A stretch of DNA of 64,000 nt from Pocillopora damicornis (Eukaryota). Each line of letters starts with the position of its first letter. Position 1 is the first letter of the stretch. The stretch covers positions 1,426,001 to 1,490,000 of the forward strand of contig NW_020845264.1 of the NCBI RefSeq assembly GCF_003704095.1, given 5' to 3'. This document shows, one piece after another, positions 1 through 2,081 of this stretch. Position numbers: made by a program.

Positions 1-2081
1 CGAGTTCATATTTTGCAGCCTATTTCAATATTCTCTTTCTTAGCCACACTTATTCATCCTTGGTTCATTATTCATACTTCTCTTGGGTGTTTTTTTCTGT
101 TTTGCTGAACAAATATTTTATGGTCTCCTTCATGTTACTCAGTACTGATTTCAATTTTGAAATTGCTGATTTAATGAAATTTTCAAAGCTTTCTCTTCTG
201 CTGATCTATTCGGAAAGGATCTGTTTCTTTAATGGTATCGATCAATTTGCATTTACCGATTTGATAGATAAACTAGAGATGTAGATGAACTGGCCTGCAA
301 ATCGAACTGTACCGCGCAGAATGTATAATAATATACCGGTCCGCGAGGGCGCTTTTCAGAAAAAAGCCTGACTTCTTATTTTACATGCCAAAATTTGAAC
401 AGAAAAACTTCGTGGATCTTTTGAAATAATGATAGATTTTACAACTGGAATAATCAGTTCCAAATTTAACGAGAGACCATTGCGTCAAATGTTTTGACTC
501 CAGAATTAATCACTGTATTTTTAAAGACATTTTATACGAGTTTTATTTTCACTCACCAAGTCACAAATTATAGAAATCCGGGCAAAAAAAAGGAAAAAAC
601 AAGAGGATTTCAACCTTTTTCGAAGAAACCGAGCAAATGGCTTTTCGGATAGCTTTTGTTTTTTCGTCGGAGTAGCAAATTGTATTTAAAATTATTTAAA
701 TCATGGTTTGACATCTTTGCTAAGCTTTAGCTAATAAGGTCCCGAATTTGCATATGCTGGTGTACGCATGTGTGATCTGAAGCCATATGTTTTATAATTT
801 GAATTGGAGAAAAACTATACACGAAAAATTTGCGGACCTTAGCGATCGATCAAAAAAAATGCTTCGACCCGATAATCTCGGATTAAATTTGGAAATTCAT
901 CCCGATGCTTTGGTGATGAATCAAGCGAGCAGAGCCGGTAAGACACCTGAAGAAAGCCGAATTTTGAAGGCAAAAGATTACAAACTACCCGTGTTTACCA
1001 GATATCGCGAGGGTACCTGCAAAGACGTTTTTTATTTCGTTCAAGTTGTGGCTCCAAAGTTCGGCCACGACGCACATCCCGAAGAAAGCTGTGATGCGGA
1101 GAAACGCCTTTTAGAAAAAGTCATAAATGCTCTTAACGACATGAGACCTAAACCGAGATTTTTACTCGTACATGGAAATTACACGAATGCATCACCAAAC
1201 GATAAAGAATATTTCCCGCAGATAGAGAGTTTTAAGTCAGCATTTGAAAATTTAAGCGCGGAGATTCCTGTCGTGTGTGTTTGTGGCCCAACAGACTGCG
1301 GTAATCCACTGACATTGGACGGCGTCGATGCGTATCGGAATACTTTTGGCGATGACTGGTTTGCCTTCTGGGTTGAAGGAGTTCAGTTTTTAGCCATGAA
1401 TACCAGTTATTACAAAGACGTGAACGCCGATATGGAGAGTTTTAAAACAGATCAACAGGAATGGCTTGAATCAAAGCTGTTGGAAGCACAAGTAAACCCG
1501 CCAAAACAAATCGTTCTTTTGCAAACCACTCCATGGTTTCGCAAATCTATAGATGAGGAGAGCAATGCAGACAACATTGATTTAAACACGCGCCAAGAAA
1601 TCGTTCCTAAACTCATAGAAGCCAACGTGAAATACGTTTTCACTGGTAATTTGAATGGCTTCGGGAAGGACAAGGAATTACATATAGTTCAAACAAGTTC
1701 TTTAAGAAAAACAAATGAGGTGGAAAATCTAGGTTTTCGTGTTGTCAAAGTCGAACATGAGGGAGTTGTACATAAATTTTTTTCTTTGGACAACTCCCCA
1801 ACAGATCTAAATTTAGAATTTTAATAACTATTGCTTTTTGCAGCTGCAACCGCATTCAGATTGCGATGTAATCCGATAACTCAAAAGTTAGAGGCTAGAA
1901 TCAGGTTCTAAAAGAATTTCACAACCACTAACTTTGTCCACTAGAGAGAGAAGAATATTTCAGACACTTTTATTATATTCATTCTGCTGGCCTAAAGCGA
2001 TTAATCAATGAAAAGAAGCATTTCAAAGGAAAGAGCATCAGAAGTCAAATATTTGCTGCGGGTCACATACAGGTATCGAAT

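What the first reader, a model, noticed from the sequence alone, without database searches (positions are those of the whole stretch)
787..1824. Intact CPPED1-like gene with all five metallophosphoesterase motifs degraded: candidate pseudo-phosphatase
Calcineurin-like phosphoesterases use the motifs D-x-(H/Q), GD, GNHD, H and GHxH. The aligned positions here read VAPKFG (D lost), HGNY (D to N), CGPTD (NH lost), LQTTP (H lost) and TGNLN (both H lost). The scaffold residues between motifs remain CPPED1-like and the ORF is open for 345 aa. There is also an approximately 75-aa N-terminal extension. Coordinated loss of ligands with a preserved fold argues for a non-catalytic role such as scaffold or substrate trap rather than decay. 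The single-exon structure raises the possibility of a retrocopy origin.
Basis: partly seen in the sequence, partly recalled or inferred. Interest (0 to 1): 0.65.

Follow-up and report, generated by a model that had tools for sequence, protein, structure and literature searches.

The report
Catalytically dead CPPED1-like phosphoesterase gene
An intact, intron-free animal gene encodes a relative of the phosphatase CPPED1 that has lost every metal-binding residue but kept the rest of the protein framework, so it most likely works by binding rather than by catalysis.

Summary
Window 787-1824 (+) is one 345-codon ORF. Residues 82-343 are homologous to bacterial metallophosphoesterases: tblastn E=2e-14, BLASTP E=1e-27, and 84.3 bits against a bacteria-only HMM versus 6.2 for the best of 1000 shuffles. 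The nearest ESM-Atlas cluster is CPPED1 (0.98).

All seven metal-ligand positions and the catalytic His are replaced: A89, K91, N131, P168, T169, T247, N288, N290. Across 13 bacterial enzymes, 15 columns are invariant. The ORF keeps 0 of the 6 ligand/catalytic ones and 9 of the 9 others (p=0.0002).

The eight codons need at least 13 base changes. Neutral drift of that depth would have closed the frame (1/2000 copies still open at d=0.2).

Best reading: a maintained pseudo-phosphoesterase, comparable to VPS29. A recently dead gene and a remodelled Cys/His site are not excluded.

I found no retrocopy hallmarks.

Not tested: eukaryotic orthologues, dN/dS, expression and structure.

This is a new member of a known kind, of moderate interest.

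The parts
787..1824 (+). Complete single-exon coding sequence, 345 codons plus TAA stop, of the CPPED1-like protein
   Evidence: ORF listing. In-frame TGA at 778-780. Codon-usage log-likelihood is +0.129 bits/codon in frame, against -0.179 +/- 0.075 for random window pieces.
787..1029 (+). N-terminal region, residues 1-81, before the phosphoesterase-like domain. No known family. Alternative starts are M25 (859) and M44 (916).
   Evidence: No Pfam family at E<=10. Coding-like codon usage, +0.18 bits/codon. Start contexts printed.
1030..1815 (+). Metallophosphoesterase-like domain, residues 82-343
   Evidence: tblastn to Parabacteroides distasonis metallophosphoesterase WP_009275010.1 covers q82-343 with E=2e-14. 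BLASTP E=1e-27, 72/264 identical. Bacteria-only HMM gives 84.3 bits, E=4.5e-25. Pfam PF00149 is sub-threshold on the domain alone: 17.8 bits against a cut-off of 21.5.
1048..1065 (+). Motif I remnant VAPKFG. A89 replaces the ligand Asp; K91 replaces the ligand His/Gln.
   Evidence: The aligned columns are 13/13 D, and 12 H + 1 Q, in the bacterial enzymes.
1171..1182 (+). Motif II remnant HGNY. G130 is kept; N131 replaces the bridging Asp.
   Evidence: The column is 13/13 D in the bacterial enzymes.
1282..1296 (+). Motif III remnant CGPTD. G167 and D170 are kept. P168 replaces the ligand Asn. T169 replaces the catalytic His. C166 replaces a conserved Pro.
   Evidence: Columns are 11 N + 2 E, 13/13 H and 13/13 D. 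The Pro column is conserved in at least 12/13.
1519..1533 (+). Motif IV remnant LQTTP. T247 replaces the ligand His; P249 is kept.
   Evidence: The column is 13/13 H.
1642..1656 (+). Motif V remnant TGNLN. G287 is kept; N288 and N290 replace the two ligand His.
   Evidence: Both columns are 13/13 H.

Best explanation
The ORF is a real, full-length, intronless gene of the CPPED1 / class-III-phosphodiesterase-like branch of the calcineurin-like metallophosphoesterase superfamily. Its two-metal centre has been dismantled. All seven canonical metal ligands and the catalytic histidine are replaced, while the structural glycines, prolines and core positions of the domain are kept.

What is shown: the homology, the replacements, their selectivity, and the intact frame.

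What is inferred:
- The protein still folds as the phosphoesterase sandwich.
- It cannot hydrolyse phosphoesters by the canonical metal-activated-water mechanism.
- It has been kept by selection for a binding role.

The most likely mode is the usual one for pseudo-phosphatases: it occupies partners or phospho-sites of its active relatives (competition or trapping), or it acts as an adaptor. Known metallophosphoesterase-fold precedents for a non-catalytic scaffold are VPS29 and the B subunits of eukaryotic replicative polymerases.
For: Homology to the family
- tblastn of the protein against 72,556 plasmid records gave 135 records at E<=10. The best is a Parabacteroides metallophosphoesterase at E=2e-14 over q82-343. 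Cupriavidus follows at 3e-8 and Ralstonia at about 2e-5.
- Pairwise BLASTP gives E=1e-27.
- The four bacterial hits scanned all match Pfam PF00149, with E between 6.4e-17 and 7.3e-10.
- An HMM built from 9 bacterial enzymes without the query scores the query at 84.3 bits. The best of 1000 shuffles scores 6.2.
- In leave-group-out HMMs the query scores 68.7-110.3 bits, against 85.7-145.1 for the left-out true enzymes. It beats the left-out Rhizobiaceae enzymes, 110.3 against 87.5-96.3.
- The ESM Atlas nearest clusters are CPPED1 (0.98, 212/256 features, 1634 members, 99% PF00149) and CPPED1-like (0.97). 15 of 30 hits carry this family set.
- A profile of the alignment finds the class III phosphodiesterase Rv0805 as the best solved relative (5.2e-16), with the motif columns aligned to its motifs.

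Selective loss of the catalytic residues
- With 13 bacterial enzymes, 15 columns are invariant. The query keeps 0/6 ligand/catalytic ones and 9/9 others (Fisher one-sided p=0.0002).
- With one sequence per lineage the result is 0/6 against 9/10 (p=0.00087).
- In leave-one-out controls the real enzymes keep 6/6 or 6/7 (same pattern).

Not long neutral decay
- The eight codons need at least 13 changes over 24 nt.
- In substitution-only simulations, 38/2000 copies stay open at d=0.1, 1/2000 at d=0.2, and 0/2000 at d>=0.46.
- Codon usage is coding-like. CpG o/e is 1.25, against 0.74 for the window.

Background from the literature
- Metals are essential to the family's mechanism. Human CPPED1 also binds PIK3R2 without dephosphorylating it (passages of PMC8366450).
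- Pseudoenzyme modes of action are reviewed in PMC10211241 (passages).
Against: - No orthologue, expression datum or structure was available, so selection is inferred from a single sequence.
- A gene that died recently is compatible with an open frame: 837/2000 simulated copies are still open at d=0.02.
- The query's terminal branch is about twice that of its bacterial sister, 2.21 against 1.06. This could reflect relaxed constraint, and the tree carries long-branch warnings.
- Pfam does not report the domain on the full-length protein. On the domain alone it stays below the gathering score.
- The Atlas shows no large unnamed cluster close to the protein (best 0.92, 146/256 features). So there is no sign of a widespread dead family, although clusters under 50 members cannot appear there.
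- There is no TATAWAWR in the 786 nt upstream.
- The first AWTAAA on the + strand lies 581 nt past the stop, at 2405.
- Three of the replacements are Asn, which can still coordinate metals.
Confidence: 0.6

Rival explanations
1. It is a recently inactivated pseudogene. The gene, or an already non-catalytic ancestor, lost its function not long ago and simply has not yet acquired a stop or frameshift.
For: - At low neutral divergence an open frame is common: 837/2000 simulated copies at d=0.02 and 241/2000 at d=0.05.
- No expression evidence exists.
- There is no canonical TATA upstream.
- The poly(A) signal is distant.
- The terminal branch is long.
Against: - The eight catalytic codons alone need at least 13 base changes, while 9/9 non-catalytic invariant columns are untouched. 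Uniform decay does not give that pattern.
- At d>=0.2, at most 1/2000 simulated copies stay open. The simulation ignores indels, which would close frames faster still.
- Codon usage is as coding-like as in Pfam-supported exons of the window, +0.129 against 0.03-0.145.
Confidence: 0.15
2. It is still a metal-binding protein or an enzyme with a remodelled site. New residues around the old pocket (H94, H97, H129, C164, C166, C171, the three Asn, D170) would form a different centre, for example a mononuclear Cys/His site, or provide 'migrated' catalytic residues.
For: - 6 of the 10 Cys/His of the domain lie within +/-6 residues of the former motif positions, which cover 71 of 264 positions. Hypergeometric p=0.026, chosen post hoc.
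- C166 replaces a Pro conserved in at least 12/13 bacterial enzymes. H129 replaces a Thr present in at least 7/9.
- Some pseudoenzymes are known to retain activity through migrated residues (abstract of PMC10211241).
Against: - The statistic is weak and post hoc.
- No acidic ligand replaces the two lost Asp.
- The catalytic His is lost.
- No family with such a site was found by Pfam, NCBIfam or PDB sequence searches.
- The geometry could not be examined because no structure was available.
Confidence: 0.15
3. On origin, and not exclusive of the above: the gene is a processed retrocopy of an intron-containing, catalytically intact CPPED1 located elsewhere in the genome, and became non-catalytic after retroposition.
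For: - The whole protein is encoded without introns, and it aligns end to end with bacterial proteins without large insertions.
- Other genes of the window are clearly split into exons: the MFS, F-box/WD40 and galactosyltransferase-like genes.
Against: - There is no A-rich tract (>=16/20) on the + strand in the 2.3 kb after the stop; the longest A run is 6.
- No direct-repeat pair brackets the ORF.
- The adjacent, highly conserved PSMB3 gene is also intronless, so lack of introns is not distinctive here.
- No second metallophosphoesterase-like piece was found among 2903 six-frame pieces of the window.
- The rest of the genome could not be searched.
Confidence: 0.15
4. It is not a gene at all: a chance ORF or an assembly artefact.
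For: None beyond the lack of expression data.
Against: - P(open by chance) is about 2-4e-11.
- The homology E-values are 1e-27 and 4.5e-25.
- The Atlas already holds the identical protein as a predicted sequence.
Confidence: 0.02

Closest known systems
CPPED1 (CSTP1), human serine/threonine phosphatase of the class III phosphodiesterase-like branch of the metallophosphoesterases
   Same: It is the nearest named cluster by protein-language-model features (0.98, 212/256). The protein is a single-domain, soluble-looking protein of similar size. The scaffold matches the same bacterial relatives that the CPPED1 paper names as closest, the CpdA-type class III phosphodiesterases (PMC8366450 passages).
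   Different: Human CPPED1 carries the complete signature D..GD..GNH[D/E]..H..GHxH and is active on AKT1 pS473 and PAK4 (PMC8366450 passages). This protein has none of the ligand residues. No direct alignment with a eukaryotic CPPED1 was possible here.
Parabacteroides distasonis metallophosphoesterase WP_009275010.1 (plasmid NZ_OY725748.1)
   Same: It is the best sequence relative available: 27% identity over 264 residues, E=1e-27. It is the sister in the tree, with support 82/80. It shares the FYF.Q start strand, the P.FG loop and the C-terminal G.R.VKV...VH..(F/Y)(F/Y).LD segment.
   Different: It is bacterial, has a signal-peptide-like N terminus, and has all motifs intact (SDPQFG, TGD, PGNHD, GHYP, GHLH). 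It passes Pfam PF00149 at 4.1e-15.
VPS29, retromer subunit
   Same: It has a metallophosphoesterase fold with an 'incomplete catalytic site' and is used as a protein-protein scaffold (passage of PMC5748213). This is the clearest precedent for how a dead member of this fold works.
   Different: It belongs to a different branch of the superfamily. No detectable sequence relation was found here: it is absent from the 41 PDB hits of the profile. It is ancient and universally conserved, whereas the distribution of the present gene is unknown.
B subunits of eukaryotic replicative DNA polymerases (alpha, delta, epsilon)
   Same: They have a calcineurin-like/Mre11-like phosphoesterase domain whose catalytic residues are replaced by non-catalytic ones, and they act as structural subunits (passage of PMC4187176).
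   Different: They are a nuclease-derived branch and an obligatory part of a large complex. They are unrelated in sequence to the present protein at the level tested.
STYX-type pseudophosphatases
   Same: The proposed mode of action is the same. A dead phosphatase competes with an active one for the same substrate: STYX against DUSP4 for ERK2 (PMC10211241 passages).
   Different: STYX has a Cys-based fold with a single catalytic residue lost. Here the fold is a metalloenzyme and eight residues are lost.

Membership tests
Calcineurin-like metallophosphoesterase superfamily (Pfam PF00149) | Significant sequence similarity to bona fide members over the whole domain | tested here: met
   tblastn E=2e-14. 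BLASTP E=1e-27. Bacteria-only HMM: 84.3 bits against 6.2 for the best of 1000 shuffles.
Calcineurin-like metallophosphoesterase superfamily (Pfam PF00149) | Pfam model score at or above the gathering cut-off (21.5 bits) | tested here: not met
   The full-length protein gives no PF00149 match at E<=10. The domain alone gives 17.8 bits, E=0.0048.
Calcineurin-like metallophosphoesterase superfamily (Pfam PF00149) | Seven metal ligands plus catalytic His in five motifs | tested here: not met
   0 of 8 positions are retained: A89, K91, N131, P168, T169, T247, N288, N290. The 13 bacterial enzymes keep them, apart from the H/Q and N/E variants.
Calcineurin-like metallophosphoesterase superfamily (Pfam PF00149) | Beta-sandwich phosphoesterase fold | not tested
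The fold is inferred from homology only.
CPPED1 / class III phosphodiesterase-like group | Signature D-[X]n-GD-[X]n-GNH[E/D]-[X]n-H-[X]n-GHXH (PMC8366450) | tested here: not met
   Only the G of GD, the G and D of GNHD and the G of GHxH remain.
CPPED1 / class III phosphodiesterase-like group | Closer to CPPED1 than to other metallophosphoesterase branches | tested here: inconclusive
   The Atlas feature search places CPPED1 clusters first, at 0.98 and 0.97. The best solved relative of the family profile is the class III phosphodiesterase Rv0805.
CPPED1 / class III phosphodiesterase-like group | Metal-dependent phosphatase or phosphodiesterase activity | not testable with these tools
   This needs a biochemical assay.
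Pseudoenzyme (pseudo-phosphoesterase) | Homologous to an enzyme family but lacking the conserved catalytic motifs by sequence (definition in the abstract of PMC10211241) | tested here: met
Pseudoenzyme (pseudo-phosphoesterase) | Maintained by selection and expressed, that is, not a pseudogene | tested here: inconclusive
   Indirect support comes from the selective loss pattern and the open frame despite at least 13 changes in 8 codons. No orthologues, dN/dS or expression data were available.
Processed retrocopy | Intronless copy with a poly(A) remnant and flanking target-site duplications | tested here: not met
   It is intronless. There is no A-rich tract in 1825-4111 and no bracketing direct repeats.
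Processed retrocopy | Intron-containing parent gene elsewhere in the genome | not testable with these tools
   Only the 64-kb window is available, and it holds no second copy.

The most novel reading that the evidence does not exclude
This would be the first pseudo-phosphatase of the CPPED1 / class III phosphodiesterase branch. It would be a lineage-specific, selectively maintained dead paralogue whose former two-metal pocket has been rebuilt from Lys, Asn, Thr and a local Cys/His cluster. It would read or shield phospho-sites, or dock partners, in the PI3K-AKT-PAK pathway that active CPPED1 regulates, acting as a decoy against the active enzyme.
Probability: 0.2. Interest if true: 0.6.

Novelty: new member of a known kind. 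Interest (0 to 1): 0.4.

Why it matters
Dead enzymes that survive as binders are a recurrent source of signalling regulators. For the metallophosphoesterase fold only a few are understood, namely VPS29 and the polymerase B subunits.

CPPED1 itself is poorly understood. Its fold class was proposed only in 2021, and it binds PIK3R2 without acting on it (PMC8366450). A natural, fully ligand-less CPPED1-like protein would be a ready-made 'substrate-trap' version for finding CPPED1 partners. It would also be a test case for which parts of the scaffold matter apart from catalysis.

No paper in the searched library pairs CPPED1 with 'pseudophosphatase' (0 papers). If the gene turns out to be a young pseudogene, it is of little interest.

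Tried and rejected
Structure
Each retry came only after 20 other calls. No fold, pocket geometry or fold search result exists.
- I did not use complex prediction as a substitute.

Searches of bacterial and archaeal genomes
- The search for related loci with the protein found 49 pattern matches and 0 confirmed relatives.
- The five-sequence alignment was rejected for lack of a conserved stretch.
- A two-sequence alignment found 275 pattern matches and 0 confirmed.

Other sequence searches
- PDB search with the protein alone gave only E of about 1.
- NCBIfam gave 0 families.
- tblastn against phages gave 3 records at E 0.3-0.8, none a phosphoesterase.
- The Atlas search restricted to unnamed clusters gave nothing close: best 0.92, 146/256 features.

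Signals around the gene
- The poly(A)-signal scan is uninformative: 233 matches in the window against 232 expected.
- There is no TATAWAWR upstream.
- CpG o/e of 1.25 is suggestive at most.
- The tree places the query beside the Parabacteroides enzyme with only moderate support and long-branch warnings. I draw no rate conclusion from it.

Literature
- 'CPPED1' plus 'coral' returned 5 papers, none about a coral gene by title or abstract.
- Of 274 papers holding at least 2 of 5 pseudoenzyme/CPPED1 terms, the 12 listed all have 0 occurrences of CPPED1.

- The search for homologous proteins, the search of protein representatives, metagenome and viral contigs, and paper supplements were closed.
- Eukaryotic CPPED1 sequences, orthologues of this gene, dN/dS, and the alignment figures and supplements of PMC8366450 therefore stayed unchecked.
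Full report
**What is there**

Window 787-1824 (+) is a single ATG-to-TAA ORF of 345 codons. An in-frame TGA lies immediately upstream at 778-780.
- The other five frames of the stretch carry 13-25 stops each.
- The chance of 345 stop-free codons at this base composition is about 2-4e-11.
- In-frame codon usage scores +0.129 bits/codon on a model trained on Pfam-supported exons of the same window. 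Those exons score 0.03-0.145 in leave-one-out. Random 1038-nt window pieces score -0.179 +/- 0.075, maximum 0.106. Up to 300 pieces were drawn and those holding N were dropped.

The window looks like an animal genome. Its other genes include proteasome beta-3, an F-box/WD40 gene, an MFS transporter, an MGAT5-like N terminus and a galactosyltransferase-like gene. I did not determine the organism, and I do not take the contig for human. The two N runs (16177-16276 and 52431-52530) were left alone. The gene is single-exon, so no spliced model had to be joined.

**Is it a metallophosphoesterase relative?**

Curated models alone say little.
- Pfam reports no Metallophos match for the full protein at E<=10.
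- On residues 78-345 alone, Pfam gives a sub-threshold match: PF00149 at 17.8 bits against a cut-off of 21.5, E=0.0048.
- NCBIfam gives nothing.
- A PDB sequence search gives only E of about 1.

Direct comparison is decisive.
- tblastn against 72,556 plasmid records gives 135 records at E<=10. The lead hit is a Parabacteroides distasonis metallophosphoesterase, q82-343, 27.3% identity, E=2e-14. Cupriavidus follows at 3e-8 and many Ralstonia records at about 2e-5 to 4e-5.
- Pairwise BLASTP with the Parabacteroides protein gives E=1e-27, 72/264 identical.
- The four bacterial proteins scanned all pass PF00149.
- An HMM built from nine bacterial enzymes without the query scores the query at 84.3 bits (E=4.5e-25). 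The best of 1000 shuffles of the query scores 6.2 bits.
- In leave-group-out tests the query scores 68.7-110.3 bits, in the range of held-out true enzymes (85.7-145.1). It scores above the held-out Rhizobiaceae enzymes.
- The Parabacteroides enzyme is as similar to this ORF (82 bits) as to its other bacterial relatives on plasmids (75-91 bits).

**Is it CPPED1-like?**

- The ESM Atlas holds the identical protein. Its nearest clusters are 'serine/threonine-protein phosphatase CPPED1' (0.98, 212/256 features, 1634 members, 99% with PF00149) and 'CPPED1-like' (0.97). 15 of 30 hits carry this family set.
- A profile of the query plus nine bacterial relatives finds 41 solved structures at E<=1e-3. 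The class III phosphodiesterase Rv0805 comes first (5.2e-16), then GpdQ and purple acid phosphatases.
- The bacterial relatives weakly resemble CpdA and SpdA in NCBIfam, below the cut-offs.
- This matches the published placement of human CPPED1 in the class III phosphodiesterase group (PMC8366450, passages read).
Membership in the CPPED1 orthologue group therefore rests on the Atlas lead.

**The motifs**

The register is the same in four alignments: MAFFT with 9 and 13 bacterial enzymes, the bacteria-only HMM, and an alignment including E. coli CpdA.

| Motif | Change in the query | Column in 13 bacterial enzymes |
|---|---|---|
| I | D to A89 | 13/13 D |
| I | H/Q to K91 | 12 H + 1 Q |
| II | D to N131 | 13/13 D |
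| III | N to P168 | 11 N + 2 E |
| III | H to T169 | 13/13 H |
| III | D170 kept | 13/13 D |
| IV | H to T247 | 13/13 H |
| V | H to N288 | 13/13 H |
| V | H to N290 | 13/13 H |

The profile columns align with the corresponding motifs of Rv0805. Rv0805 is the structure from which PMC8366450 took its ligand map.

**Decay or a maintained protein?**

Two tests bear on this.

First, the loss is selective.
- 15 columns are invariant in all 13 bacterial enzymes. The query keeps 0 of the 6 ligand/catalytic ones and 9 of the 9 others: G130, P161, G167, D170, G188, Q223, P249, G287, G316 (Fisher one-sided p=0.0002).
- At looser thresholds the results are 0/7 against 11/13, 0/8 against 13/16, and 0/8 against 13/22.
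- With one sequence per lineage the result is 0/6 against 9/10.
- In leave-one-out controls the real enzymes keep 6/6 or 6/7.
- The nine-sequence version gave 0/6 against 10/12.

Second, the depth of change at the catalytic codons.
- The eight replaced codons need at least 13 base changes over 24 nt.
- If the whole gene had drifted neutrally that far, the frame would be closed.
- In substitution-only simulations of 2000 copies each, the numbers still open were:

| Neutral divergence d | Copies still open (of 2000) |
|---|---|
| 0.02 | 837 |
| 0.05 | 241 |
| 0.1 | 38 |
| 0.2 | 1 |
| 0.3 | 1 |
| 0.46 | 0 |
| 0.7 | 0 |

Together these argue that the scaffold stayed under purifying selection while the ligand positions were free or driven to change. 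They do not exclude a gene that died very recently. They rest on one sequence and on inferred ancestral residues.

**What it probably does**

The family's chemistry needs the two metals to activate water and position the phosphate (PMC8366450 introduction). With no acidic ligand and no catalytic His, canonical hydrolysis is very unlikely. This is an inference from established knowledge of the family.

The replacements are polar (Lys, Asn, Thr) rather than hydrophobic. A pocket that still accepts a phospho-group or a partner loop is therefore conceivable, but this is inference only.

Precedents for a binding-only role:
- VPS29, with an 'incomplete catalytic site', acts as a scaffold (PMC5748213 passage).
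- The polymerase B subunits have their catalytic residues replaced (PMC4187176 passage).
- The general pseudo-phosphatase modes are competition, allostery and scaffolding (PMC10211241 passages).
- Human CPPED1 itself binds PIK3R2 without dephosphorylating it (PMC8366450).

An unexplained detail is a local Cys/His cluster. Six of the ten Cys/His of the domain lie within six residues of the old motif positions: H94, H97, H129, C164, C166, C171 (post hoc p=0.026). This keeps a remodelled-site reading alive.

**Origin**

The gene has no introns, whereas other genes in the window are split into exons. The retrocopy hallmarks are absent, however.
- There is no A-rich tract in the 2.3 kb after the stop.
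- There are no bracketing direct repeats.
- The convergent neighbour, a complete and highly conserved PSMB3, is intronless too. It aligns 205 of 205 residues to mammalian beta-3 at E=1.9e-107.
- No second phosphoesterase-like piece exists among 2903 six-frame pieces of the window.

**Novelty and limits**

I found no paper pairing CPPED1 with 'pseudophosphatase' (0 papers). None of the coral hits deal with this gene. Only search listings and abstracts were seen for those.

Dead members of this fold are a known kind, so this is a new member of it.

Untested:
- Structure (five refusals).
- Expression.
- Supplements and figures of PMC8366450 (not held or closed).

Noticed in passing
window 4112-4729 (-): A complete proteasome beta-3 subunit (PSMB3) sits in a single uninterrupted ORF. 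It aligns 205 of 205 residues to mammalian beta-3 (E=1.9e-107). It is convergent with the CPPED1-like gene, 2.3 kb away. This makes two adjacent intronless genes in a genome whose other genes have introns.
   Followed up: partly
window 1048-1305 (protein residues 88-173): There is a local cluster of Cys/His around the former active-site loops: H94, H97, H129, C164, C166, C171. Six of the ten Cys/His of the domain lie within 71 of its 264 positions (post hoc p=0.026). This may be a remodelled site or may be chance.
   Followed up: partly
window 48291-49517 (+): This is the longest open stretch of the window, 408 codons. The N-terminal half is acidic and Ser-rich, and the C-terminal part is Cys-rich. 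It has no Pfam family at E<=0.01 and no PDB sequence match at E<=0.01.
   Followed up: partly
window 10760-16057 (-): A multi-exon F-box gene (PF00646, E=3.1e-9) has WD40-like open pieces downstream. Its 5' end lies next to the N run at 16177-16276.
   Followed up: no
window 40986-41483 and 42119-42850 (+): These are two open pieces of a beta-1,3-galactosyltransferase-like gene: Pfam Galactosyl_T at 1.3e-5, and a weak PDB match to B3GALT6 at 8.6e-6.
   Followed up: partly
window 18960-19409, 20082-20855 (-) and 24323-24751 (+): MFS-transporter exons (PF07690, 1.3e-11 and 4.1e-27) and an MGAT5-like N-terminal piece (PF15027, 1.2e-10).
   Followed up: no
window 52617-52689 (+) and 35418-35490 (+): tRNA-Thr (GGT) was found by ARAGORN and Rfam, 87 nt after the N run at 52431-52530. 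A second tRNA-like match was found by Rfam only (34 bits against a gathering score of 29).
   Followed up: no
window 2085-2116: A perfect (AT)16 microsatellite lies in the presumed 3' region of the CPPED1-like gene.
   Followed up: no
window 787-1824: CpG observed/expected is 1.25 in the ORF, against 0.74 for the whole window. In invertebrates a high value usually goes with unmethylated, tissue-specific or inducible genes; this is from my own knowledge, not tested here.
   Followed up: no
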